From Patescibacteria group bacterium (GTDB taxonomy: Bacteria > Patescibacteriota > Patescibacteriia > Patescibacteriales > UBA12465), in NCBI GenBank assembly GCA_049318005.1, contig JBMOHE010000002.1, positions 13,824-77,823 of the forward strand: a stretch of 64,000 bases of DNA, written 5' to 3'. Position numbers and translations under genes: made by a program. Below, one piece after another: positions 42,300 through 54,452 of the stretch. A model generated the notes under the pieces. It searched no databases. It was not told where the DNA came from and was given only the letters and a program-made list of their open reading frames with translations. The first letter of the stretch is position 1; each line of letters begins with the position of its first letter.

Positions 42300-42326
42300 C
42301 AAAAAATAGGCTAATGTTAGCCTATT
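42300..42326 (-). terminator. Intrinsic terminator after repeat copy R2
   Basis: Minus strand AATAGGCTAACATTAGCCTATTTTTT. Confidence 0.65.
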
Positions 42327-42336
42327 TAATGTTTGC

Positions 42337-42405: not shown

Positions 42406-45400
42406 TTATTTTAAATCACCCACATCTATTTTTCTAATATTTTCATTACTTATTCCAAGAGATAACTGTCTCATTATTTGATAAGCAGCCTCTCCGTTAG
42501 CGAGATAATATCTGTAACCATCAGTTGGGTTAATATACCAGGCTTCCCCGTTATTTTCTACTTGAAGAACTATTCTGCCTTTTAATCTATTAGTTAGAGC
42601 GGTTGAATAATTAGTATTCTTGATATAATCACTTGGTAAGACAGAAGTAGGAGCAACTGGTATTTTGTTTAAATCGGCATTAGTTATTCCTAACCCAAAC
42701 TTACGTAGAGCTTGATAGGCAGCTGGTCCATCAGCTAGATAATATCTTGATAAAGAGACCTTGTCTAAATACCAGGCTTGGCCTTTAGTTTCTACTTGGA
42801 GTAATATGCGGCCAGCTAGTTTAGTTGAAAGCTTCTTATCTATTATCTTAGATAGTAGTGATCTTTCATATTGATAGATGCTGGAAATATAATTATTAGC
42901 CTGACCATCTTTGGTTGGCTCATTGACTTCTGGGGTAGTAGGGGATCCGCAACTTCTTTCAGTGAGAGCTCTTTGCTCAGCTGTTAGTGAGCAGAAGTTT
43001 GGAGATTTAGCTAGAACGTTTCTAAATTGTTTACCGCCGATACAAGTGGTTTGCCAAGCGTCGTAAGTTACTTCAGAGCAGCTAGAGATAACTAGAGGAG
43101 AATATGAGCTGCCACTTGCAGGGCTAGCTACTGGATTATTACCAGTATAGACAACGTATTCGGAAAAGTGCTTAGTCCAGACAATCAAATCGCTGCCAAC
43201 ATTAATTTTACAATCGCCATTAGCTATTAAGGCGTCACCGTCTAACTGGGAATCACCGGAGCAAGTATTACTAATTGGCCTAAACTCTCCCATATTGTTA
43301 ATAAAGCCAACATTATTACCAGCCTGACCGAAGAATGTCACTCTAACTGCTTTATTTAGAGTTAAGGTGGCGTTAGGGTCGCCGATTTCGAAAATGGAGA
43401 TAATGTCACTAGTTTTAAGAGATATGGACCCCGCTGCTTTTTGCTGAGGCAAACTAAATACCTCCGACCAAGCTAAAGTATTAGCAGTCATAGTTGTTCC
43501 ACTAAATACTTCCAAGCGAATATCTGAGGAGATATTAGCAATTAATTTCTCAGCGAAAGTGACTGTTTTACTACCACTAACAGTTTCAACGACAGAAGAA
43601 AGGTCAAGAGATATTTTATTAACACTATCAACACTACTAATTGTTGTTTGGGCATGCTTCATGTCTGGTGAAAATGCGATAGCTTGTGAATTACTAGTAT
43701 TTATGTATATAGGCTGAACGTTTATTAAAGTAACTGATTTAGCAAAATAGTTAGAGACTAAACCGCTACTATCTTTTGACCAGGCGTAAAGATTGTTTCC
43801 AAACGATGAGGTATAAATATTATTTCCAGATACAGCAATCAGGTCAGAGCCTCTATTAGAAGCAGCGACCAAAGATCCACTAAGGGTAGAATTAAAACTA
43901 GTCCAATTAGCGCCACCATCTAGAGACTGGTAACCATTACTTCCAGACAAAGCTATAATGTGTTTATCATCCTCTCCTGAGATGATAAAGGAATTAATAG
44001 ATGTGTCTTGAATCTTAAACTCTGTCCAAGTATTACCATCGTCTTCTGAAAAATACTTACTATCAACTCCGTCATTATTAACCGTCGCTACTAATTTAGT
44101 TCCGTAAGATGAGTATTTCAAACCGCCGCTAATTAGTGTTCCCGATGGACGAGTCTTTTGCAAATAGTTAACACCACCATCTGTTGACACCCAGATAAAA
44201 TTACCAACTTCAGAATTACCAGCCGCAATTTTTTCACCATTTCTAGTCATTGTGATTGCTAGCCAGTCACTAACAGCCACTGATGAAGAAGCCCAGGTGG
44301 CTCCACTATCACTGGACATATAGATGTCGGTAGCGTTACCAGTAACAACAATCTTTGAGCCATCAGAAGATGAATCTATTACTCTGAAATTTCCAGTAGT
44401 AGCACTAGACCAAGTAGAGCCGCCATTAATAGATTTCGAAACACCGCTTGAACCAGCTAGATATAATTTTAGGCCATCAGCGGAGGCGCCAAGATCATAC
44501 CAAGTACCAGCCTCTGTGCTTACAGAACTCCATATTTGACCATAGTCAGAGGAAGTTGAGATGGTGCTGTTATTTATTAGAGCAAAAATCTTCTTACCAT
44601 CAGCTGCGCTAATTATTTTCTGAATAGCGTTAGAAGTAGTGGTTGATAAAGTCCAGGTAGCTGGATGACTTGGCTTTAGACTACTAAAGGCGTGGCTGGT
44701 TGGCGCCTGAGATCGCCAGCGAGAATTATTAGATAACGGCTTTTGATCTGTTTCGGTTAACAGATAGGCGGCAGCATTAGTTACTGGACTGAGGATTAGA
44801 GAAACAACTGAAGAGCTAGACACAAGAGGAATAGACAAAGAATCGGAATTGGAAGTAACTAAAATTTTCCATTGGCCATAAGCTGTTTCTTCGTTATTAG
44901 TAGCATAGGCACGGTAGTAATAGACAGTACCAGAAGTTAATCCCGACAAATCATATGAATAGTTACTATCAGAGAATGGACTACTTTCTGTAGTAGTGGC
45001 ATAGTTATTAATACTTGCCCCCCAGTTGAATCCTCTAACCGTTGGATCAAAAACATCTACATATTCAATGTTACCATTAATGGTTGCTGAGCTTGATTCT
45101 AGATTAGAAACTTCATCTGTTATTATCTTTTCAGATTTAAACTTGATTATGAAGATATCCATATTTCCATCTGAAACAAGATTAGAAACACCATATCCTG
45201 TGTCAAAATCGACGGTACCAGGAAAATAACCAGTGACATAGACGTTACTCAAAGAATCTACGGTAACTGATTCTCCATAATCATTACTAGTTGCACCAAT
45301 ACTTTTAGCCCAGGCGAATGCTCCATCAGCATTTAATTTAGAGATGAAGATATCTACATTGCCAGCTGAGACAAGATTATAAACACCAGACCCTGGGTCA

Positions 45401-48400
45401 AAATCAACAGTACTAGAAAAAGAACCAGTTGTATAGACATTGCCTGAGAAGTCTACAGTAATTGAATGCCCAGTATCATAACCAGTTCCACCCATCTTTT
45501 TTGCCCAAACAAAATTACCATTACTATCTAATTTTGAGATGAAAATATCATCACTAGCTGAAGTGAGATTATATACCTCCTCTCCTGGATCAAAATCACC
45601 GACGCCACGAAAATAACCAGTAGTATAAATATTACCTAAAGAGTCTACAGTGATTGAGTTTCCTCGATCATCACTAGTTCCGCCCATCTTTTTTGCCCAA
45701 ACAAAATTACCATTACTATCTAATTTTGAGATGAAAATATCATCACTAGCTGAAGTTAGATTATATACCTCCTCTCCTGGATCAAAATCACCCGTACCAG
45801 AAAAATAACCGGCGGTATAGACGTTACCCAAAGAATCTACAGTGATTGAATATCCATGATCATTACTAGTTGAACCAATCTTTTTTGCCCAAACAAAATC
45901 ACCATTATTATCTAACTTTGAAATAAAGATGTCAGCACTACCAGTTGAAACAAGATTGTAAGCGCCAACTCCGGGATCAAAATCAGCGATATAATCAAAA
46001 TAACCAGTGGTATAGATATTGCCCAAAGAATCTATAGTGATTGATTTTCCTGCCTGACCAGAAATTCCGCCAATTTGTTTAACCCAAATAAAATCACCAT
46101 TACTATCTAGTTTTGAAATAAAAATATCACTTTCACCAGATGAAACAAGATTATGTGTCCCCTCTCCTGGATCAAAATCAACGGTACCTCGGAAAGAACC
46201 AGTAGTATAAATATTACCAAAAGAATCTACAGTAATCGAATATCCATGATCATCACTAGTTGAACCCATCTTTTTTGCCCAGGCAAATGTTCCATCGGCG
46301 TTTAATTTAGAGATGAAAATATCTTCATTGCCAGCTGAGACAAGATTATACACGCCAGATCCTGGGTTAAAATCAACAGTATCAGAAAAACTACCAGTAA
46401 TATAAACATTATCCAAAGAATCTACAGTTATTAAGCGTCCATTATCACCACCATTTCCGCCAATCTTTTTTGCCCAAACAAAATTTTGTTCATAATTAGG
46501 GGACTTGGTTTTGAATACCGTCCAATCCCCATAAACAGTGTCTTCATTATTACTAGTAGCGTAAGCCCGATAATAATATATCGTATCAATTTCTAGATCA
46601 GTTAATTCATAAGAAAATGTTCCCGCTCCAAATGTACCATTCTCTGTAGTTGTGGCAAAAGTGCTAGTACTTATTCCCCAATTAAAACCCCTAGTCGTTA
46701 AGACAATTGAGCCTATTCCTAAAATATCACCCCTAAGAATGGCTGTATGTTCATCAATACTGTTTAAAATTAGCGCTTCTACGGAAAAGCTATTAAAAGA
46801 TTTCCACTCGCTATAACTGGTTCCCATATTATCAGTAGCATAGGCCCGGTAATAATATATAGTACCAGGAACAAGATTTGAGAGATTATAAGAATAAGTT
46901 CCTTCGCTGAAAGTGCCATTCTCTGTAGTTGTGGCAAAAGTGCTAGTACTTGTTCCCCAATTAAATCCTCTGACATTCGGATTACTTTCACCAATAGATA
47001 ATATATCGCCATTTAAGATAGCTGAATCTCTATTTAAGCCACCGACAATTGAGTTAAGTTCTAAAACTCTGTTAGTAGTAAACGAAGTCCACTCGCTATA
47101 ACTGGTTCCCATATTATCAGTAGCATAGGCCCGGTAATAATATATAGTACCAGGAACAAGATTTGAGAGATTATAAGAATAAGTTCCTTCGCTGAAAGTG
47201 CCATTCTCTGTAGTTGTGGCAAAAGTGCTAGTACTTGTTCCCCAATTAAATCCTCTGACATTCGGATTACTTTCACCAATAGATAATATGTCGCCATTTA
47301 AGATAGCTGATGATGTGCTAATATTATTAACAGTGGAAGAAACCATAGCTAAATCTATTTTCCGTATTTTTAAAATATAAGCATCAGATAGACCGGCTGA
47401 GACAAGATTGGAAACACCGACCCCTGGGTCAAAATCAACCGTGCCAGAAAAATAACCAGTGGTATAGAGGTTACCCAAAGAATCTACAGTGATTGAATAT
47501 CCATGATCATTATTATTTACACCAATATTCTTAGACCAAATAAAGTTACCACTGCTATCTAATTTAGAGATAAAGACATCGTTGCCGCCATTTGAAGTCA
47601 GATTATATACTCCACTTCCTGGATCAAAATCACCTGTACCAGAAAAATAACCAGTGGCATAGATATTACCCAAAGAATCTACAGTGACTGAGTTTCCTTG
47701 ATTGCTATTAGTTGAAACTATCTTTTTTGCCCAAACAAAAACGCCATTACTGTCTAACTTGAGAACAAAAGTGCCACCGTTCATCAGACTAGAAACACCA
47801 GTTCCTGGGTCAAAATCAACCGTGCCAGAAAAATAACCAGTGGTATAGACATTTCCCGAGGAGTCTAAAACAATTGAAGCCCCTCCATCTACTACAAAAG
47901 ATTTGCCAATTTTCTTATACCAAAGAGAATTCCCATTAATATCTAATTTGGAAATAAATATATCAGATCCATTCTCGCCAGTTATATAGGTATTTCCAGA
48001 TGGATCTACGGTGATTGATTTTCCTTGATTATAATGACCAGCGGTAGATCCGCCTATCTTTTTGGCCCAGGCAAAAGTACCATTAGCATATAGCTTAACG
48101 ATAAAATCAGAGGAGTCATTCGTCGAAGTTAGGTTAAAAACACCAGCTCCCGGATCAAAATCAACGGTGCCTTGAAAAAAGCCAGTGGCATAGATATTAC
48201 CCAAAGAATCTACAGTGACTGAGTTTCCTCGTCCTCCATAAATTCCGCCGCCCATATTCTTAGCCCAAGCGAATGTTCCATCGGTATTTAATTTTGAAAT
48301 GAAAATGGAATCGGCGCCACCAGAAACAAGATTAGAAACACCAGCTCCTGGGTCAAAATCAACGGTGCCATAAAATACACCAGTTGTATAGACATTACCC

Positions 48401-48756
48401 GAGGAATCTAAAACAATTGAATGCCCAGCATCATAACTAGTTCCGCCCATCTTTTTTGCCCAAACAAAATTACCATTACTATCTAATTTTGAAATAAATA
48501 TGTCATAATTACCAGCTGAAACAAGATTAGAAACACCAGCTCCTGGGTCAAAATCAACGGTGCCATAAAATACACCAGTTGTATAGACATTACCCAATGA
48601 GTCTAAAATGATTGAATATCCAATATCATCGCCAGTTCCACCAATCTTTTTAGCCCAATCAACAGCAACATCTTCCGCTAACGCTGGCCTAGAAGAGAAA
48701 AAAATTAGAGCGAAAACTAAAATAAAAAAGCATTTTTTGAAAGTTTTTAAATTCAT
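42406..48756 (-). CDS. Giant secreted surface protein (2116 aa): two SBBP-type beta-propeller repeat arrays, four FN3/Ig-like modules, Asp-box (BNR-like) region, Cys module, two C-terminal ~60-aa repeats
   Basis: Signal peptide ...SSRPALA/EDV; many repeats of the type G.S.D.G.SI.VDS.GN.Y.TG.F.GT.DFDPG....L.S.G..D.FISKL; SxDxGxTW-like boxes (SSDYGQIW, SDSGATW, EDDGNTW, LDGGANW). Confidence 0.85.
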   Translation of the reverse strand: MNLKTFKKCFFILVFALIFFSSRPALAEDVAVDWAKKIGGTGDDIGYSIILDSLGNVYTTGVFYGTVDFDPGAGVSNLVSAGNYDIFISKLDSNGNFVWAKKMGGTSYDAGHSIVLDSSGNVYTTGVFYGTVDFDPGAGVSNLVSGGADSIFISKLNTDGTFAWAKNMGGGIYGGRGNSVTVDSLGNIYATGFFQGTVDFDPGAGVFNLTSTNDSSDFIVKLYANGTFAWAKKIGGSTAGHYNQGKSITVDPSGNTYITGENGSDIFISKLDINGNSLWYKKIGKSFVVDGGASIVLDSSGNVYTTGYFSGTVDFDPGTGVSSLMNGGTFVLKLDSNGVFVWAKKIVSTNSNQGNSVTVDSLGNIYATGYFSGTGDFDPGSGVYNLTSNGGNDVFISKLDSSGNFIWSKNIGVNNNDHGYSITVDSLGNLYTTGYFSGTVDFDPGVGVSNLVSAGLSDAYILKIRKIDLAMVSSTVNNISTSSAILNGDILSIGESNPNVRGFNWGTSTSTFATTTENGTFSEGTYSYNLSNLVPGTIYYYRAYATDNMGTSYSEWTSFTTNRVLELNSIVGGLNRDSAILNGDILSIGESNPNVRGFNWGTSTSTFATTTENGTFSEGTYSYNLSNLVPGTIYYYRAYATDNMGTSYSEWKSFNSFSVEALILNSIDEHTAILRGDILGIGSIVLTTRGFNWGISTSTFATTTENGTFGAGTFSYELTDLEIDTIYYYRAYATSNNEDTVYGDWTVFKTKSPNYEQNFVWAKKIGGNGGDNGRLITVDSLDNVYITGSFSDTVDFNPGSGVYNLVSAGNEDIFISKLNADGTFAWAKKMGSTSDDHGYSITVDSFGNIYTTGSFRGTVDFDPGEGTHNLVSSGESDIFISKLDSNGDFIWVKQIGGISGQAGKSITIDSLGNIYTTGYFDYIADFDPGVGAYNLVSTGSADIFISKLDNNGDFVWAKKIGSTSNDHGYSITVDSLGNVYTAGYFSGTGDFDPGEEVYNLTSASDDIFISKLDSNGNFVWAKKMGGTSDDRGNSITVDSLGNIYTTGYFRGVGDFDPGEEVYNLTSASDDIFISKLDSNGNFVWAKKMGGTGYDTGHSITVDFSGNVYTTGSFSSTVDFDPGSGVYNLVSAGNVDIFISKLNADGAFAWAKSIGATSNDYGESVTVDSLSNVYVTGYFPGTVDFDTGYGVSNLVSDGNMDIFIIKFKSEKIITDEVSNLESSSATINGNIEYVDVFDPTVRGFNWGASINNYATTTESSPFSDSNYSYDLSGLTSGTVYYYRAYATNNEETAYGQWKILVTSNSDSLSIPLVSSSSVVSLILSPVTNAAAYLLTETDQKPLSNNSRWRSQAPTSHAFSSLKPSHPATWTLSTTTSNAIQKIISAADGKKIFALINNSTISTSSDYGQIWSSVSTEAGTWYDLGASADGLKLYLAGSSGVSKSINGGSTWSSATTGNFRVIDSSSDGSKIVVTGNATDIYMSSDSGATWASSSVAVSDWLAITMTRNGEKIAAGNSEVGNFIWVSTDGGVNYLQKTRPSGTLISGGLKYSSYGTKLVATVNNDGVDSKYFSEDDGNTWTEFKIQDTSINSFIISGEDDKHIIALSGSNGYQSLDGGANWTSFNSTLSGSLVAASNRGSDLIAVSGNNIYTSSFGNNLYAWSKDSSGLVSNYFAKSVTLINVQPIYINTSNSQAIAFSPDMKHAQTTISSVDSVNKISLDLSSVVETVSGSKTVTFAEKLIANISSDIRLEVFSGTTMTANTLAWSEVFSLPQQKAAGSISLKTSDIISIFEIGDPNATLTLNKAVRVTFFGQAGNNVGFINNMGEFRPISNTCSGDSQLDGDALIANGDCKINVGSDLIVWTKHFSEYVVYTGNNPVASPASGSSYSPLVISSCSEVTYDAWQTTCIGGKQFRNVLAKSPNFCSLTAEQRALTERSCGSPTTPEVNEPTKDGQANNYISSIYQYERSLLSKIIDKKLSTKLAGRILLQVETKGQAWYLDKVSLSRYYLADGPAAYQALRKFGLGITNADLNKIPVAPTSVLPSDYIKNTNYSTALTNRLKGRIVLQVENNGEAWYINPTDGYRYYLANGEAAYQIMRQLSLGISNENIRKIDVGDLK
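46804..47310 (-). repeat. Intragenic near-perfect tandem duplication, 285-bp period (two FN3-like modules)
   Basis: 46804-47025 and 47089-47310 are nearly identical (one mismatch noticed: ATATATCGCC vs ATATGTCGCC); a diverged third unit lies at about 46505-46790. Confidence 0.85.
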
Positions 48757-48950
48757 AAAGAATATACTATTTTATTTTAACATATATATAGATTTATTTT
48801 AACATATAGAATTAAAAGCATCAAAAAAATTAATTAAACAAAGATAAAAATATTCTAAGATAGGAGTGGTAAGCTTTTATTAAACCGTTTTACTAAAATA
48901 ACTTAAATATAGCAAAAACAAGCATTTCTTCCTATTTTTGAATTACTAGC

Positions 48951-49020: not shown

Positions 49021-49965
49021 TTATTCTAAGTCACCAACACCTATCTTTCTAATATTTTCATTACTAATTCCAAGAGATAACTGTCTCATTATTTGATAAG
49101 CAGCCTCTCCACTGGCAAGATAATATCTATAACCATCAGTTGGATTAATGTACCAGGCTTCCCCGTGGTTTTCTACTTGAAGAACTATTCTTCCTTTTAA
49201 TTTATTGGCTAAAGCGGTTGAATAATTTGAACTTTTTACATAATCACTTGGTATCGCTGATTTTGGCGCTACAGGTATTTTAGCGAGATTGACATTATTA
49301 ATACCTAAACCAAACTTACGCAAAGCCTCATAGGCGGTTGGGCCATCAGCTAGGTAATATCTCTGTAGTGACACGGCATCTAAATACCAAGCTTGACCAA
49401 AACGCTCTGTTTGCAGCAATATCCTGCCAGCCAAACGTTTAACTAGGTTTTTATCAATTTTTATTGTTAATTTTTTTTCGTCCAATATAACGCTAGACGT
49501 TTTAGAATTGATAATGTTACCTAAATTTTTTATTTCTAAAATTGATTCAGTGGACGTTGCTTCTTTAAGTATTTGTTCAGTTGATGTGGCTAATTCACAA
49601 ATCCTACTAGATGCTATTTGCTGAATTGTGGTTAATGTACAAGAAGCTGGAGTACTAGTTAAAACTTTACGAAATTGTTGATTGCCAACGCAAGTCTGCC
49701 AAGGAGAATAAGTTATATCCGAACAATAAGTTGTGGCTGGTCCACCACCGCCACCGCCACCTCCTCCGCTTGTAACGGTCGCTGTTTGAGTATATGTAGC
49801 AAAACTAGTAAAATGCTTAGTCCAAATTACTAAATCTGAACCTGAATTTATTTTACAGTCTCCGTCAATAATTAAATTTGCATCTGCCCAAGTTTGAGAG
49901 TTTTCTCCGCAAGCAGTTGATATCTCAGTAAAATCAATTTCTGTTCTTATCATGTTTTCTTGCAT
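49021..49965 (-). CDS. 5'-truncated paralogue of the giant protein C-terminus (314 aa, no signal peptide); possibly a pseudogene or silent cassette
   Basis: Colinear with roughly the last 330 aa of the giant protein (GDCKIN.GSDL..WTKHF, Cys module, two GRI.LQVE..G.AWY repeats); last ~200 nt highly similar at DNA level. Confidence 0.6.
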   Translation of the reverse strand: MQENMIRTEIDFTEISTACGENSQTWADANLIIDGDCKINSGSDLVIWTKHFTSFATYTQTATVTSGGGGGGGGGPATTYCSDITYSPWQTCVGNQQFRKVLTSTPASCTLTTIQQIASSRICELATSTEQILKEATSTESILEIKNLGNIINSKTSSVILDEKKLTIKIDKNLVKRLAGRILLQTERFGQAWYLDAVSLQRYYLADGPTAYEALRKFGLGINNVNLAKIPVAPKSAIPSDYVKSSNYSTALANKLKGRIVLQVENHGEAWYINPTDGYRYYLASGEAAYQIMRQLSLGISNENIRKIGVGDLE

Positions 49966-50055
49966 TTTGGCTTGTTTCCGAGAAGTATCTCGGTCAACAG
50001 CACAAAAAATGTGTTGGCTCCCAGGGTCGGATTCGAACCGACGACCAATTGGTTA

Positions 50056-50621
50056 CACTTATCCAATAGTTTCCTAAAGGGGTGGACTATATCATCATCC
50101 ATACGCTTATGGATGCAAGGCGCTTCGGGCCGTCTACCGACGGACCTACTCCCTTTCGGGATAGTCTCTGAACCTTCCCTAAACTCTAGGGCTTGGCTGC
50201 TGATTACCATATCCTTACAGATTTAGGCTTCCAGACAATTCACCTTGTTTTTCGACCTCAATTACTTGAGGAAGCTGCGTAGAACCTTCGTGCACTTCAC
50301 GATGACAATTTGCACATAATAGCATACATTTATTAAGCTCTTCCTTTATCATTTTCCAACTTCTTGTATATCCTTTTGCAGATATACCAAAATCTTTTTT
50401 ATCAGATTCTAGATGATGGAATTCAAGAGCTTTTAAACATTTACTATAACCACAAACTGAGCATCTACTGCCTTTGTATTCAAGAGATAATTGACGAATC
50501 TTTTTACGTCTTCTATCAACTGCCTGTTTTAAATACTCGGCACGATCGGCATATTTTCTTTTATCTTTTGTCATACAAATATATAAATATATTCATAGTA
50601 GCTAAAGATAAAAAAGAGTTC
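50056..50621 (-). mobile_element. Group I intron (P7.1/P7.2-bearing, IA-like) with HNH ORF in the P1 loop
   Basis: IGS GCAGCT (50273-50278) pairs with exon GGCTGT incl. U.G; P2 CCTCAA-GTAA-TTGAGG; P3 CAAGGTG/CGCCTTG; P6 CCCTA/TAGGG; P7 GACTAT/ATAGTC; P8 CATCCATA-AGCG-TATGGATG; GTTCAGAGACTA and GATATAGTCC core elements; omega-G 50056. Confidence 0.8.
50215..50574 (-). CDS. Intron-encoded HNH endonuclease (119 aa)
   Basis: CSVCGY...LEFHHL...NKCMLLCANCHREVH (CxxC...HH...N...CxxCH HNH motif); last ~35 codons overlap IGS, P2, P3, P4; stop codon in L5. Confidence 0.85.
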   Translation of the reverse strand: MTKDKRKYADRAEYLKQAVDRRRKKIRQLSLEYKGSRCSVCGYSKCLKALEFHHLESDKKDFGISAKGYTRSWKMIKEELNKCMLLCANCHREVHEGSTQLPQVIEVEKQGELSGSLNL

Positions 50622-50708
50622 ACAGCCAACTGCGCTACCGCTGCGCTACCTGGGAATATTAAGTTGTCTCAAAAAAACAAAAATGTTTTTTAAACATCTT
50701 ACTATCAT

Positions 50709-51253: not shown

Positions 51254-52618
51254 TTAGTAATCTCTTAACTTCTCAAGCCCCTTAAACTTTCTAATTTTTT
51301 CTAAAGCCTTAGACTCAATCTGACGAATACGTTCACGAGTAACTTCAAACTCCTGACCAACTTCTTCTAAAGTATGCGCAACACCGTCAACTAAACCAAA
51401 ACGCATTTCTAAAATCTTTTGTTCACGAGGCGAAAGTTGAGCAACAATGTTTTTTACATAATCTTTTAATAACTGAAGAGCGGCGGCGTGATCCGGAGTA
51501 ACGTTCTTAACGTCCTCAATAAAATCTTCTAGAGTTGAATCTTCCTCATCGTCTCCAATAGTAGTTTCAAGAGAAATCGTGTCTTGAGAAATTTTCATAA
51601 TGTATCTAACCTTCTCAATTTCCTCTCCCATCTCAGCGGCAATTTCATCGGCTAGCGGTTCTCTTCCTAATTCTTGAATTAAATTTCTCTGCACCTGTTG
51701 GAATTTATTGATTGTTTCAACCATATGAACAGGAATGCGAATTGTTCGAGATTGATCAGCGAGCGCACGAGTAATCGCCTGACGAATCCACCAAGTAGCA
51801 TAGGTTGAAAATTTATAACCTTTTCTATATTCAAATTTTTCTACCGCACGGAATAAGCCAATATTTCCTTCTTGAATTAAATCTAGAAGACTCATGCCTT
51901 TGGCGCCAGCAAATTTTTTAGCAATAGAAACAACTAAACGTAAATTAGCTTCAATAATTCTCTTCTCTGCTTCCTTATCACCTTTTTCTTTTCTCTTCGC
52001 AAGTTCTACTTCCTCTTCGCCAGTTAAAAGCGCGACTTTACCAATCTCCTTCAAATACATCTGGATTGAGTCAGCGCTTAATTTTGATAAATCGATATTC
52101 ATCGCGTTATGGTGAGCTAAAGCTTTTCCAGTTAGCGGCGGTTCATTGGCTTTCTTTTCGGCCATATCTAAAATTCTTCCTGAATCTTCGGCAATTCTAA
52201 TTCCATTTCTCTGAAGATCACCAAGGAAAACATCATAATCATAAACATATTCTTCAACTTCCGGAAATAAATATAAAAGCTCAGTTTCAGTTATGAAACC
52301 ACGTAAACGTCCTTTATCTATTAAACGCTTCATCGATTCTTCTGATGGTTTAGCAACTGGCTTAGCCTCTCTTTCTTGATGTTTAACCAGCTTAATAGTT
52401 GGCTTATGCGCTTTTTTTGGCGCCACCTTTTTAACAGTTTTTTTAGCAACCGGACTTTTCTTCTTTTCAATCTTTTTGATTACTTTTTTGACTGTTTTTT
52501 TAGCAACTGGAGCCTGCTTCTTCGGCGTGGGTTTTTTAATAACTTTCTTGGCCACAGTTTTAGAATTGGTCATTTTTTTTACAGATTTTATAATTTTTTT
52601 TGGCTTTTTTTTTGCCAT
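51254..52618 (-). CDS. rpoD: RNA polymerase sigma factor RpoD with Lys-rich repetitive N-terminus
   Basis: Region 2 [40 protein letters not shown]; region 4 [20 protein letters not shown]; N-terminal VAKKTVKKV repeats. Confidence 0.95.
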
Positions 52619-52625
52619 ATAAATT

Positions 52626-54452
52626 TTAACCTAAATTAATCATTTTTATTTGATCCATCAAACTTTTTAACTCTTGCATTAATATTTCTAAATCTTCTTG
52701 ACGCCCATCTTTCTCCGCATTCATTATCGTCTTCTCTAATTTTTTTATTTTCTTCTGCAAACCATATTTCTTTAACTCAACAATAATCTTAATTATTTCT
52801 GATTTAGCCGCCATGGCATCGAAATCATAAAAATCTTTTTCTCCTAAAAGAATAAGCTTATCTAATAGCTTTTCAGCCTCTTCTCCTTGATCCTCTAAAT
52901 ATACTCTAAATTCACCATAATCTAAAGAGGCAGTCTTATTATAGTAGATTATTAGGCTCTTGTAAATTCTAATATCCTCTTCTCCGTTTAAAAAATCCGG
53001 CTCTAAGTTGCTTAAAGTATATCCAATAAAGTCGGGAAATTTAACGATTAGGGCTAGTAATAATTCCGATAAACGCTCTTCTCTTGTTCTATACTCGGTC
53101 CTAACGTCTGGTTTTTTTTCTGTTTTTAAAACACTAGGCTTTTGCTTATTTACCCAGTCCTTAAACTCGTTTCGCATGTCCTCCTCGGAGAATCCAAGCT
53201 CTTCGCTAATCTTTTTTAAATAGAATCCTTGCTCGGTCTGATTTTTAACTAAATCAATCATGATAAACATTTGATCACGTATCTTAGTTTTATTATCAAA
53301 TTTTTCTAAATCTAAATTAGCACTTATTTTTTCAAAATAATATTCAAGCATCGGTTTGGCGTCCGTAACTGCTTGCTTAAAATCGTCGGGATTATTACGC
53401 AAACATTCATCCGGATCTTTTCCATTAGGAAGCACAATAATTTTTAAACTTAGCTCTTGAGCCAATACTTCTCTTATCCCTCTATCAGCTGCCATTTGAC
53501 CGGCATTATCCATATCAAAAGATAAGGCAACGTTACTAGTAAATCTTTTTATTAAAGTAACTTGCTCAGTTGTTAAGGCTGTTCCTGATGAGGCAACTAC
53601 GTTCTGAAAGCCGTGCTGATGGCAAGAAATGGCATCCATTTGCCCTTCTACGACAATTGCGAGATCTTCCTTCCTAATAGCATTTTTAGCCTTATTTAAT
53701 GCAAATAGGACCCGGCTTTTATCATAAACTTCAGTCTGGGGACTATTAATATACTTGCCCATTTTTTCCGTCAGTTCCTTCTCTGGATTAATACGCGCCG
53801 TGAAAGCAATTAAGTTATTATTTACATCCCAAATTGGAAACATTATTCGATCACGGAATCTATCATAGTAACTTCTTGAGCCTGTTACCGCTCGGTCTTT
53901 CTTAATAATTAAACCTGCGGCTAATATTTCATCGTCCGTATACTTTTTTCCAGTTAAAGGACGGGCTTTTAAAAAACTATATAAACTATCCCAGGAATCA
54001 GGGCTATAACCAAGACTCCATTCACTAATCGTATTTTCTTTTAACTCACGCTTGGCCAAGTAATCTTTAGCAACTTTTCCAGTCGCATTATTTAAAACAT
54101 GCGCATAATATTTTCCAGCTATTTCAAGGATATCAAGTAGGCGATTACGCTTCGAATAATTATCGGGATTTTCATATTGAAGGGTTACCCCAGCCTTTGG
54201 GGCAAGTAATCTCAAGGTCTCCATAAAACCCAATGACTCTTTTTCCATTACAAAAGCTAAAACGTCTCCCCCGCGGCCACAACCGAAACAATGCCAAATC
54301 TGTTTATCTGGCGAAATCACAAAAGACGGTGACTTCTCATTATGAAAAGGACAAAGAGCTTGAAAGTTAGCGCCCACAGCTTTAACCGGAGTGTATTCAC
54401 GAATCACCTCCACGATATCGAGTTTAGATTTTATTTCTTCCGCTTGTCCCAT
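52626..54452 (-). CDS. dnaG: DNA primase
   Basis: Zinc finger [30 protein letters not shown]; TOPRIM VVEGQMD. Confidence 0.95.

What the first reader, a model, noticed from the sequence alone, without database searches (positions are those of the whole stretch)
42406..48756. 2116-aa secreted mosaic surface protein, with two propeller-repeat arrays plus an Asp-box propeller and a duplicated C-terminal module
Seen directly, in order from the N-terminus:
- a cleavable signal peptide;
- about 7 repeats of roughly 60 aa (G.S.D.G.SI.VD..GN.Y.TG.F.GT.DFDPG....L.S.G..D.FISKL..NG.F.WAKK.GG), which I recognise as the SBBP beta-propeller repeat type;
- three FN3/Ig-like modules, each ending in YYYRAYAT;
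- a second array of about 8 propeller repeats, then a fourth FN3-like module;
- a region with six SxDxGxTW-like Asp boxes, which is BNR or Sortilin-like;
- Ig-like segments, a Cys-bearing module and two copies of a ~60-aa unit (GRI.LQVE..G.AWY......RYYLA.G..AY..(M/L)R..(S/G)LGI.N..(L/I).KI).

This one gene takes up about 10% of the window. In reduced episymbiotic bacteria a protein like this is a prime candidate host-attachment adhesin. The C-terminal double module is unassigned and may be the cell-envelope anchor.
Basis: partly seen in the sequence, partly recalled or inferred. Interest (0 to 1): 0.6.

Follow-up and report, generated by a model that had tools for sequence, protein, structure and literature searches.

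The report
Self-cleaving tethered surface protein, Patescibacteria
This 2116-residue secreted protein of an ultra-small (Patescibacteria) bacterium carries three beta-propellers and four FN3-like domains on a stalk that looks like the recently described self-cleaving "MAIN/GAIN" domain, followed by an uncharacterised, lineage-specific double module sitting where other bacteria place their cell-wall anchor.

Summary
The ORF (42406-48756, minus strand, 2116 aa) is real and intact. It is identical to NCBI MFZ4631818.1, annotated "SBBP repeat-containing protein", from a Patescibacteria MAG.

- a signal peptide;
- four FN3-like modules;
- a six-Asp-box propeller that matches Sortilin-Vps10;
- six cysteines;
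- a duplicated C-terminal unit.

Two things are new.

1. **The "Ig-like" stretch (~1681-1876) looks self-cleaving.** It is a beta-sandwich whose best structural matches are GAIN and ZU5 autoproteolytic domains. It carries H1863-F1864-S1865 at the break between its last two strands. This matches the "MAIN" domain of a 2026 preprint (signal peptide, adhesion or enzymatic domains, MAIN, anchor). That preprint's text does not mention Patescibacteria.

2. **The C-terminal double module is a large family without a Pfam or NCBIfam model.** It has about 3,700 clusters at 50% identity, with named members almost all Patescibacteria. In relatives, the same slot after the cleavage motif holds PG_binding_1, SLH, LysM, dockerin or a membrane helix.

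So this is most likely a cell-envelope-tethered protein whose ectodomain may be sheddable. Cleavage, anchoring and host adhesion are all untested inferences.

The parts
42406..48756 (-). Whole gene, 2116 aa, identical to NCBI MFZ4631818.1 'SBBP repeat-containing protein' (Patescibacteria MAG)
48676..48756 (-). Signal peptide, residues 1-27 (MNLKTFKKCFFILVFALIFFSSRPALA|EDV); no lipobox
   Evidence: read from the translation; no predictor was available
47341..48666 (-). SBBP beta-propeller array 1, 7 repeats (residues ~31-472)
   Evidence: Pfam SBBP; 7 cores at 49-422; 192-195 nt period
46492..47340 (-). Three FN3-like modules (residues ~473-755), each with YYYRAYAT; modules 1 and 2 are 98% identical at DNA level
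45121..46491 (-). SBBP beta-propeller array 2, 7 repeats (residues ~756-1212)
   Evidence: (NCBIfam LipL53-type SBBP, 291 bits, below its equivalog cut-off of 400)
44851..45120 (-). Fourth FN3-like module (residues ~1213-1302)
   Evidence: Pur_ac_phosph_N and PhoD_N stretches; YYYRAYAT at 1279
43717..44850 (-). Asp-box (BNR / Sortilin-Vps10-like) beta-propeller with six SxDxGxxW boxes (residues ~1303-1680), flanked by short beta segments
   Evidence: the same unit occurs in L001
43129..43716 (-). MAIN / GAIN-B / ZU5-like beta-sandwich (residues 1681-1876), including the C1832/C1849 pair
   Evidence: AF2 model with pLDDT 70-90 over most of this domain; Foldseek top hits are GAIN and ZU5; 385 related genome loci; MAIN preprint
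43162..43170 (-). H1863-F1864-S1865, the predicted autoproteolytic site (cut between F1864 and S1865)
   Evidence: HF[ST] in all relatives; strand break at S1865 in the model; HFS is cleaved F|S in B. subtilis YfkN
42937..43128 (-). Linker plus 4-Cys module (residues 1877-1940; C1893, C1905, C1922, C1936)
   Evidence: TSP_1 sub-threshold at E 0.029
42655..42846 (-). C-terminal module, copy A (residues ~1971-2034)
42421..42612 (-). C-terminal module, copy B (residues ~2049-2112)
48774..48824 (-). Two overlapping sigma-70-like promoter matches with extended -10 TG in the 264-nt AT-rich upstream spacer (weak evidence)
   Evidence: the number of matches in the region is not above the shuffles
42304..42327 (-). 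Terminator-like hairpin about 80 nt after the stop codon (weak evidence)
49021..49965 (-). Adjacent 314-aa truncated paralogue. It holds the last ~60 residues of the MAIN-like domain (with HFT), the 4-Cys module and the same double module. It has no signal peptide.

Best explanation
This is a Sec-exported, modular surface protein of a Patescibacteria bacterium, built on the 'MAIN-domain' plan.

Shown:
- Residues ~30-1680 form a large ligand-binding ectodomain. It has two 7-repeat SBBP arrays (presumably 7-bladed propellers), four FN3-like spacers and one Asp-box propeller.

Inferred from predicted structure, motif and architecture:
- Residues ~1681-1876 fold as a GAIN-B/ZU5-type beta-sandwich.
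- It cleaves itself between F1864 and S1865. His1863 activates Ser1865, an N-to-O acyl shift follows, and the resulting ester is hydrolysed.
- The new C-terminal fragment starts with the strand SEYVVYT, which stays inserted in the sandwich. The ~1840-residue ectodomain would therefore stay attached non-covalently.

Inferred from position and distribution:
- The 252-residue C-terminal fragment consists of a linker, a 4-Cys module and two copies of a ~62-residue Patescibacteria-specific module.
- This double module tethers the complex to the cell envelope, most likely the wall or a wall-associated polymer.

Speculative:
- Pulling force on a bound ligand could release the ectodomain, allowing detachment or shedding.
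- What the propellers bind, and whether it is a host cell, is unknown.
For: Domains.

MAIN-like fold:
- The AF2 model of residues 1660-1945 is all-beta, with pLDDT 70-90 over most of the sandwich and 80-90 at the last strands.
- Seven of the top ten Foldseek PDB hits are GAIN (4dlo_B, E 1.5e-3, prob 0.99; 9mqr) or ZU5 (6m3p, 3g5b, 4d8o).
- 3g5b and 4dlo are the ECOD references under which the preprint's structure-based domain parser (DPAM) files MAIN domains.

Motif:
- WTKHF[ST] is the most conserved stretch of the domain.
- The residue after HF is S or T in 82 of 82 copies, and that position was not in the retrieval pattern.
- The predicted strands break exactly at S1865.
- The same HFS motif is cleaved F|S in YfkN, shown by Edman sequencing and an S-to-A mutant.

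Architecture:
- The preprint reports the order signal peptide, adhesion or enzymatic domains, MAIN, anchor in virtually all MAIN proteins. fn3, LTD, SBBP, BNR_2 and Sortilin-Vps10 are among the partner domains it lists.

Homology bridge to Bacillota:
- The domain is 34-44% identical (tblastn E 1e-25 to 1e-30) to a domain in Paenibacillus proteins. Eight of these were inspected and carry SLH-type C-terminal tails.
- The P. pectinilyticus protein reads our-type domain, then a second HFT domain, then 3 SLH. This matches the preprint's row '...FIVAR Big_2 Invasin_D4 ZU5 ZU5 SLH'.

Anchor slot:
- In 81 relatives the tail after the cut site (median 211 aa) carries PG_binding_1 (26), SLH (9), Dockerin_1 (4) or LysM (1), a terminal TM helix (10), or the double module (3).

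Double-module family:
- 3,695 cluster representatives at E<=1e-3.
- 138 of 140 top representatives have two copies. 100 are C-terminal, 30 sit right after a signal peptide and 10 are internal. 109 of 140 have an N-terminal hydrophobic leader.
- Partner domains are typical of secreted or surface proteins: CARDB, fn3, trypsin, subtilase, SH3_3, LTD, cupredoxin, S-layer.
- The AF2 model is confident, with pLDDT 92 and pTM 0.82.
- The neighbouring paralogue keeps the module at 88-93% DNA identity, while the rest of the aligned region is 41-75%.
Against: - Nothing links the domain to GAIN, GPS or ZU5 by sequence at significance. Pfam ZU5 is hit by only 2 of 81 family members at E~0.04. PDB profile searches found nothing. 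hhalign against the Paenibacillus second (Pfam-ZU5-hitting) domain gives only P 1e-3 and probability 22%.
- The structural match rests on one AF2 model built from a 7-sequence alignment (mean pLDDT 62.8). Its Foldseek TM-scores are low (0.2-0.3), and I could not inspect the residue alignment.
- Conservation of H and F in the genome set is circular, because the retrieval pattern contained WTKHF.
- The double module has no structural or sequence relative of known function, so 'anchor' rests on position only.
- Its appearance at N-termini and internally shows it is an autonomous domain, but not what it binds.
- No full-length orthologue exists in the databases searched. The next hits cover only about 22% of the protein.
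Confidence: 0.6

Rival explanations
1. It is an uncleaved, permanently attached adhesin. The 1681-1876 sandwich is only a structural Ig-like spacer, and HF[ST] is conserved for folding reasons.
For: - No significant sequence match to ZU5, GPS or GAIN.
- The model has moderate confidence and low TM-scores.
- The preprint itself says 'nearly all', not all, tested MAIN domains cleave.
Against: - The strictly S/T position after HF in 82 of 82 copies.
- The motif sits at the last beta-turn.
- The conserved [ST]xFxTYTQ strand is followed by a Gly-rich linker.
- The top structural hits are coherently GAIN and ZU5.
Confidence: 0.2
2. It is a secreted or tethered glycan-processing or nutrient-scavenging protein rather than a host adhesin. 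The Asp-box propeller would be a glycoside hydrolase and the SBBP and FN3 parts would act as substrate-binding scaffolds. This is compatible with MAIN-type release.
For: - NCBIfam 'F510_1955 family glycosylhydrolase' hit at 55.9 bits.
- MAIN proteins are enriched in glycoside hydrolases.
- Relatives with the same stalk carry enzymes, for example Peptidase_S8 in L058 and a beta-helix in L010.
Against: - The NCBIfam hit is far below its cut-off of 175 bits.
- The better match is the non-catalytic Sortilin-Vps10 propeller.
- No catalytic motif was identified.
Confidence: 0.15
3. The double module is not a self-envelope anchor. It binds something else, such as the host wall, an S-layer lattice or a partner protein, or it mediates oligomerisation.
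For: - No similarity to any known wall-binding fold.
- It also occurs N-terminally and internally.
- It co-occurs with SH3_3, SH3_4 and PG_binding_1, which are themselves wall binders.
Against: - In MAIN-type relatives the same slot holds PG_binding_1, SLH, LysM or a TM helix.
- It almost always comes as a tandem pair, as many wall-binding repeats do. That count is biased by the two-copy profile used.
Confidence: 0.25
4. The ORF is a repeat-driven assembly chimera.
For: - FN3 modules 1 and 2 are 98% identical over 235 nt.
- The only full-length copy comes from one assembly.
- A truncated paralogue lies next door.
Against: - The SBBP units are 60-90% identical at DNA level and in register.
- The frame is open for 6.35 kb.
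- The C-terminal 810 aa are colinear with L001 from another MAG.
- The C-terminal cassette recurs in independent metagenome fragments P0001 and P0241.
Confidence: 0.05

Closest known systems
MAIN (Microbial Autoproteolysis INducing) domain proteins, e.g. Bacillus subtilis YfkN (Brogan & Rudner, bioRxiv 10.64898/2026.05.12.724683)
   Same: - The order signal peptide, large adhesion/enzymatic ectodomain, beta-sandwich with HFS, C-terminal tethering region.
- HFS at the last beta-turn.
- Structural matches to the same ECOD references (3g5b, 4dlo).
- Partner domains fn3, SBBP, BNR and Sortilin are also listed in the preprint.
   Different: - The host is a Patescibacteria bacterium. The preprint's text does not mention that phylum.
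- The anchor is not sortase, SLH or a known wall-binding domain. It is an uncharacterised double module.
- A 4-Cys module lies between the domain and the anchor.
- The CPR and archaeal subfamily has a Cys pair before the cleavage strand that Paenibacillus members lack.
- Cleavage is untested here.
GAIN domain of adhesion GPCRs (BAI3 4dlo, CD97) and ZU5 domains (UNC5b 3g5b, ankyrin)
   Same: - Best Foldseek matches for the modelled domain.
- H-x-S/T scissile motif between the last two strands.
- Adhesion modules sit N-terminal to the domain (mechanism as summarised).
   Different: - No helical GAIN-A subdomain and no 7TM region.
- No significant sequence similarity.
- TM-scores are low.
SBBP-repeat surface proteins (Pfam PF06739; Leptospira LipL53-type lipoproteins; T9SS-sorted SBBP proteins of Bacteroidota)
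   Same: The ~64-residue SBBP repeats are about 50% identical to arrays in Bacteroidota, cyanobacterial and planctomycete proteins.
   Different: - Those proteins use a lipobox or a T9SS C-terminal sorting domain (PF18962).
- This one has two arrays, no lipobox and no T9SS tail.
- It scores 291 bits against the LipL53 equivalog cut-off of 400.
Candidatus Parcubacteria bacterium OH_PDB_195 protein (locus L001, 1363 aa)
   Same: 38% identity over residues 1305-2116, covering the Asp-box propeller, MAIN-like domain with HFS, 4-Cys module and double module.
   Different: It lacks the whole SBBP-FN3-SBBP-FN3 N-terminal 1300 residues and has a second Asp-box unit instead.
Repeat-type cell-wall-binding modules (SLH, LysM, PG_binding_1, choline-binding repeats, CWB2)
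   Same: - Small autonomous units used in tandem at a protein terminus.
- Attached to many different secreted domains.
- They occupy the same slot after MAIN-type domains.
   Different: - No profile match to any of them.
- The predicted fold (short helix, 3-stranded sheet, helix, strand, short helix) matches nothing in PDB or BFVD.
- Binding is untested.

Membership tests
SBBP beta-propeller repeat (PF06739) | Repeated units matching the Pfam model above the gathering score | tested here: met
   234.5 bits against 20.5, in 14 stretches; 7+7 cores
SBBP lipoprotein, LipL53 family (NF047494, equivalog) | Score at or above 400 bits, and a lipoprotein signal | tested here: not met
   291 bits; no lipobox in the N-terminus
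FN3-like (fn3 PF00041 / Pur_ac_phosph_N PF16656) | Profile match above the gathering score | tested here: met
   60.5 bits against 30 in 4 stretches; fn3 26.3 against 25
BNR/Asp-box propeller, Sortilin-Vps10 type (PF15902) | Repeated SxDxGxTW boxes and a profile match above the gathering score | tested here: met
   Six boxes; 47.5 bits against 33 on the segment
Sialidase / F510_1955 glycosylhydrolase | Score above the family cut-off; catalytic residues | tested here: not met
   55.9 bits against 175; catalytic residues were not examined
MAIN / GAIN-B / ZU5 autoproteolytic domain | GAIN-B/ZU5-like beta-sandwich fold | tested here: inconclusive
   Foldseek top hits are 4dlo_B (E 1.5e-3, prob 0.99), 6m3p, 9mqr, 3g5b and 4d8o. 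TM-scores are only 0.2-0.3, and the model has mean pLDDT 62.8 from 7 sequences.
MAIN / GAIN-B / ZU5 autoproteolytic domain | Conserved H-x-(S/T) at the turn between the last two strands | tested here: met
   H1863-F1864-S1865. DSSP strands at segment residues 197-205 and 207-211 break at S1865. S/T follows HF in 82 of 82 copies.
MAIN / GAIN-B / ZU5 autoproteolytic domain | Architecture: signal peptide, adhesion/enzymatic domains, MAIN, cell-surface anchor | tested here: met
   Domain order. Relatives' tails carry PG_binding_1, SLH, LysM or a TM helix. In this protein the anchor itself is inferred.
MAIN / GAIN-B / ZU5 autoproteolytic domain | Sequence homology to established members | tested here: inconclusive
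   34-44% identity to a domain of SLH-anchored Paenibacillus proteins, whose architecture matches a 'ZU5 ZU5 SLH' row of the preprint. Pfam ZU5 is hit by only 2 of 81 at E 0.04, and hhalign probability is 22%.
MAIN / GAIN-B / ZU5 autoproteolytic domain | Autoproteolysis with the fragments staying associated | not testable with these tools
   Needs expression and S1865A mutagenesis, as done
Known wall/envelope anchors (SLH, LysM, PG_binding_1, LPXTG, choline-binding, CWB2, T9SS CTD) | Profile match or sorting motif in the C-terminal 250 residues | tested here: not met
   No Pfam or NCBIfam match. The protein ends ...IRKIDVGDLK, with no LPXTG or TM helix.
Thrombospondin type 1 repeat (PF00090) for the 4-Cys module | Profile match above the gathering score | tested here: not met
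   15 bits against 21.6, E 0.029

The most novel reading that the evidence does not exclude
The ~62-residue double module is a previously undescribed cell-envelope-anchoring domain that defines much of the Patescibacteria surface proteome (at least 3,700 clusters at 50% identity). Patescibacteria, and also DPANN and Nitrosopumilaceae archaea, would use GAIN/MAIN-type self-cleaving stalks to hold force-releasable ectodomains. That would give ultra-small episymbionts a built-in attach-and-release mechanism.
Probability: 0.35. Interest if true: 0.75.

Novelty: new variant of a known kind. Interest (0 to 1): 0.55.

Why it matters
How Patescibacteria display proteins on their surface, and how they attach to and let go of hosts, is largely unknown. 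They lack the classical Gram-positive anchors in this protein class.

If the reading is right, three things follow:
- The just-described microbial GAIN-like (MAIN) mechanism extends to the ultra-small bacteria and archaea.
- A very abundant, unnamed domain becomes a candidate surface-anchoring module for this group. It would be a practical handle for predicting their surface proteomes from sequence.
- There is a concrete, cheap experiment: an S1865A cleavage assay and sacculus binding by the double module.

The propeller and FN3 part on its own is ordinary and is already annotated in NCBI.

Tried and rejected
- The look-up of encoding contigs on the protein found nothing on record. The organism came instead from the protein search and cluster look-up.
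- PDB sequence searches found nothing relevant, whether with the double module or with the MAIN-like profile from 6 and from 81 sequences.
- Foldseek of the confident double-module model against PDB and BFVD gave no hit with E<0.07. Chemokine-like beta3-alpha hits at TM ~0.4 were judged topological coincidence.
- Pfam on the isolated single module, and on a 'spliced' Ig-like segment with the propeller removed, gave no hit.
- The word-based homologue search for residues 1660-1945 found only 4 proteins. The pattern-based genome scan was needed to reveal the family.
- Literature searches for SBBP in Patescibacteria, or for a described CPR anchor domain, found nothing.
- I could not match the Paenibacillus protein to a preprint accession by molecular weight, because the table was cut when stored.
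- A C-terminal sorting-signal reading of the double module (T9SS-CTD-like) was rejected, because 40 of 140 representatives carry it N-terminally or internally.
- A lipoprotein reading was rejected because there is no lipobox.

Full report
**The observation**

The window is AT-rich (GC 0.29-0.38) and is chromosomal. dnaG (52626-54452) and rpoD (51254-52618) lie upstream on the same strand. A GNAT acetyltransferase gene and a DinB-type polymerase gene lie downstream.

The ORF at 42406..48756 on the minus strand is open for 2116 codons. Its product is identical to NCBI MFZ4631818.1, 'MAG: SBBP repeat-containing protein [Patescibacteria group bacterium]', on a 161.5-kb contig. The gene is therefore already called and named for its most obvious repeat.

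- **Signal peptide.** A type-I signal-peptide-like N-terminus, MNLKTFKKCFFILVFALIFFSSRPALA|EDV (read directly).
- **SBBP repeats.** 14 in total (Pfam 234.5 bits), in two arrays of seven at residues 49-422 and 776-1164.
- **FN3-like modules.** Four, each with YYYRAYAT.
- **Asp boxes.** Six. The segment passes the Sortilin-Vps10 gathering score, 47.5 bits against 33.
- **Cysteines.** Six, between residues 1832 and 1936.
- **C-terminal units.** Two copies of a ~62-residue unit.

At DNA level the SBBP units are 60-90% identical with a 192-195 nt period. FN3 modules 1 and 2 are 98% identical over 235 nt. Only the FN3 copy number is at real risk of mis-assembly.

**The C-terminal double module**

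No Pfam, NCBIfam or PDB sequence match exists for this region. A word-based search with the last 161 residues returned 132 short proteins. Nearly all the named ones come from Patescibacteria lineages: Falkowbacteria, Komeilibacteria, Kerfeldbacteria, Buchananbacteria and the Parcubacteria group. The single exception was labelled Elusimicrobiales.

An exhaustive profile search of 1.84 billion cluster representatives found 3,695 at E<=1e-3 and 2,655 at E<=1e-30.

Among the 140 best representatives:
- 138 have exactly two copies. This count is biased, because the profile used holds two copies.
- 100 carry the pair at the extreme C-terminus, 30 directly after a signal peptide and 10 internally.
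- 109 have an N-terminal hydrophobic leader.

The partner domains are typical of secreted or surface proteins: CARDB, fn3, trypsin-like and subtilisin proteases, SH3_3/SH3_4, LTD, cupredoxin, Laminin_G_3, TIG and an S-layer domain. A calcium-binding TSP3 repeat often sits in the linker between the two copies.

AlphaFold2 with a 60-sequence alignment gives a confident model (pLDDT 92, pTM 0.82). Each copy is a short helix, a three-stranded sheet, a helix, a strand and a short helix. Foldseek finds nothing comparable in PDB or BFVD.

The module is therefore an autonomous, abundant, essentially Patescibacteria-specific extracellular domain of unknown fold class. Because it also occurs at N-termini, it is not a position-dependent sorting signal.

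**The 'Ig-like' stretch**

Residues 1660-1945 have no Pfam hit and only four homologues in the word-indexed search. The alignment shows one sharply conserved stretch, C-K-I-N-V-G-S-D-L-x-x-W-T-K-H-F-[S/T].

An AF2 model was built from only 7 sequences and has mean pLDDT 62.8. Confidence is 70-90 over most of the sandwich and 80-90 at the last strands. The model is all-beta, and the last two strands are separated exactly at S1865.

Foldseek against PDB returned these as best hits:
- the GAIN domain of BAI3 (4dlo_B, E 1.5e-3, probability 0.99);
- ankyrin ZU5 (6m3p);
- CD97 GAIN (9mqr);
- UNC5b ZU5 (3g5b);
- ankyrin-B ZU5 (4d8o).

TM-scores were low, at 0.2-0.3. GAIN and ZU5 are both families of self-cleaving beta-sandwiches.

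A literature search then found a May 2026 preprint by Brogan & Rudner (10.64898/2026.05.12.724683). It describes 'MAIN' domains, microbial GAIN-B-like sandwiches that cut themselves at a conserved HX(S/T).
- In B. subtilis YfkN the motif is HFS. Cleavage between F and S was shown by Edman degradation and by an S-to-A mutant.
- The two fragments stay associated after cleavage.
- Nearly all MAIN proteins have the order signal peptide, adhesion or enzymatic domains, MAIN, cell-surface anchor.
- The preprint's structure-based domain parser (DPAM) files MAIN domains under ECOD 'ZU5/Nup98-C/GAIN-B autoproteolytic', with references e3g5bA1 and e4dloB6. These are the same two entries that appear among my hits.
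- Its partner-domain table includes fn3 (566), LTD (554), BNR_2 (23), SBBP (11) and Sortilin-Vps10 (2).
- Its text does not mention Patescibacteria.

**Family context**

A pattern scan of one genome per species, confirmed by tblastn, found 385 loci that encode this domain. The 80 loci kept break down as follows:
- about 43 from Patescibacteria of many lineages;
- 10 from archaea (Nitrosopumilaceae/Thaumarchaeota, Woese-, Pace- and Micrarchaeota);
- 14 from Bacillota (Paenibacillus, Desulfotomaculum, Desulfoscipio, Pelotomaculum, Syntrophomonas, Fimivivens);
- the rest unclassified or doubtfully labelled.

In all 81 copies the domain lies near the C-terminus of a large protein of up to 3182 aa. 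It is followed by HF[ST], as 68 HFT and 13 HFS. The H and F are circular evidence, because the retrieval pattern contained WTKHF. Three pieces of evidence are independent of that pattern:
- S or T at the next position in 82 of 82 copies;
- one copy in L068 that was not retrieved by the pattern and still carries HFT;
- the second Paenibacillus domains, which carry HFT or HLT.

After the cut site all tails begin [ST]xFxTYTQ and continue into a Gly-rich linker. The rest of the tail (median 211 aa) carries one of the following:

| Tail element | Copies |
|---|---|
| PG_binding_1 | 26 |
| SLH | 9 |
| Dockerin_1 | 4 |
| LysM | 1 |
| C-terminal transmembrane helix | 10 |
| Double module | 3 |

This is the anchor slot of the MAIN plan. 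It is the main argument that the double module is an envelope tether.

The Paenibacillus pectinilyticus example (2483 aa) reads our-type domain, then a second HFT domain, then three SLH. Paenibacillus tails of this type hit Pfam ZU5 at E 1.4e-4 (2 of 81 tails). Its architecture matches the preprint's row 'FIVAR Big_2 Invasin_D4 ZU5 ZU5 SLH'. That identification is my inference, not a verified accession match.

The closest relative overall is a 1363-aa Parcubacteria protein, L001. It is colinear with residues 1305-2116 at 38% identity, covering the Asp-box propeller, MAIN-like domain, 4-Cys module and double module. Another relative, L058, puts a subtilase on the same stalk and anchor.

No full-length orthologue of the whole mosaic exists in the databases searched. 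The next hits cover about 22% of the protein, namely the SBBP array, and come mostly from Bacteroidota, cyanobacteria and planctomycetes.

**Weak points**

- Sequence-level links to ZU5, GPS or GAIN are absent or sub-threshold.
- The structural evidence is one shallow-alignment model, and I could not see the residue-level superposition.
- Nothing shows what the double module or the propellers bind.
- I rate 'MAIN-type domain' at about 0.7, actual self-cleavage at about 0.55, the double module as envelope anchor at about 0.6, and host adhesion as the biological role at about 0.35.

**Verdict**

The ectodomain is ordinary and already annotated.

The added value is the self-cleaving stalk and the recognition of a very large unnamed Patescibacteria module in the anchor slot. 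Together these make this a new variant of a recently described kind of surface protein. It is moderately interesting and directly testable.

Noticed in passing
window 49021-49965 (-): The upstream neighbour is a 314-aa paralogue, 58% identical to residues 1818-2116 of the big protein. It starts inside the MAIN-like domain (keeping HFT) and has the 4-Cys module and the double module, but no signal peptide. It is probably a 5'-truncated remnant. DNA identity to the big gene rises from 41-75% to 88-93% over the last ~180 nt, which suggests purifying selection or gene conversion on the anchor module.
   Followed up: partly
window 50015-50655 (-): A tRNA gene is split by a group I intron (Rfam Intron_gpI at 50063-50293, 90 bits). 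The intron region carries an HNH-endonuclease-like ORF (50215-50574). ARAGORN missed the gene, but the joined exons fold as a valid tRNA. Under the U/G splice-site rule it would be Thr(UGU) or Asn(GUU). The annotated-looking ORF 49950-50210 is a spurious read-through of the intron and T-arm. The truncated paralogue starts ~50 nt after this tRNA.
   Followed up: partly
window 46791-47025 and 47076-47310: FN3-like modules 1 and 2 are 98% identical at DNA level over 235 nt. This indicates a very recent internal duplication, or a spot where short-read assembly could have the copy number wrong.
   Followed up: no
window 43717-44850 (-), residues ~1303-1680: The Asp-box propeller appears to be inserted into a small Ig-like domain. 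'...AAAYLLTETDQKPLSNNSRWRSQAPTSHAFSS' precedes it and 'NNLYAWSKDSSGLVSNYFAKSVTL' follows it. This pattern I recall as one contiguous domain in other surface proteins. L001 has the same arrangement twice. A Pfam scan of the spliced halves found nothing.
   Followed up: partly
window 42937-43128 (-), residues 1877-1940; also L032, L072, L074: A 4-Cys module (CxxxxYxxWxxxCxxGxQxRN...PxxC...C) sits between the cleavage domain and the anchor. It recurs in CPR and DPANN relatives and gives a sub-threshold TSP_1 (thrombospondin type 1) match at E 0.029.
   Followed up: partly
loci L032, L039, L045, L056, L073 (tails after the HF[ST] site): Another recurrent, unassigned C-terminal module occupies the same anchor slot in several Patescibacteria proteins. 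It ends '...LRPxDRNLxSEKxAIxxFKxIFKxxPxxAxDWDIVRAIAYSGAxR'. P0243 and L068 carry yet another repeat ('KIYVLxNGKKxHIxxLxELKK').
   Followed up: no
loci L005, L008, L018, L041, L076 (Nitrosopumilaceae/Thaumarchaeota) and L051-L054, L072, L074 (DPANN): The same HFT-bearing domain occurs in archaeal proteins. The Nitrosopumilaceae/Thaumarchaeota tails are long (~530 aa in L005, L008, L018, L041), and four end in the same or nearly the same sequence. Several DPANN tails end in a C-terminal TM helix.
   Followed up: no
loci L002, L034, L044, L050, L080: These contigs are labelled 'uncultured Gammaproteobacteria' but carry Patescibacteria-type proteins. The L002 tail is 96% identical to that of the Parcubacteria locus L001, so these look like mis-binned or mis-labelled MAG records.
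   Followed up: no
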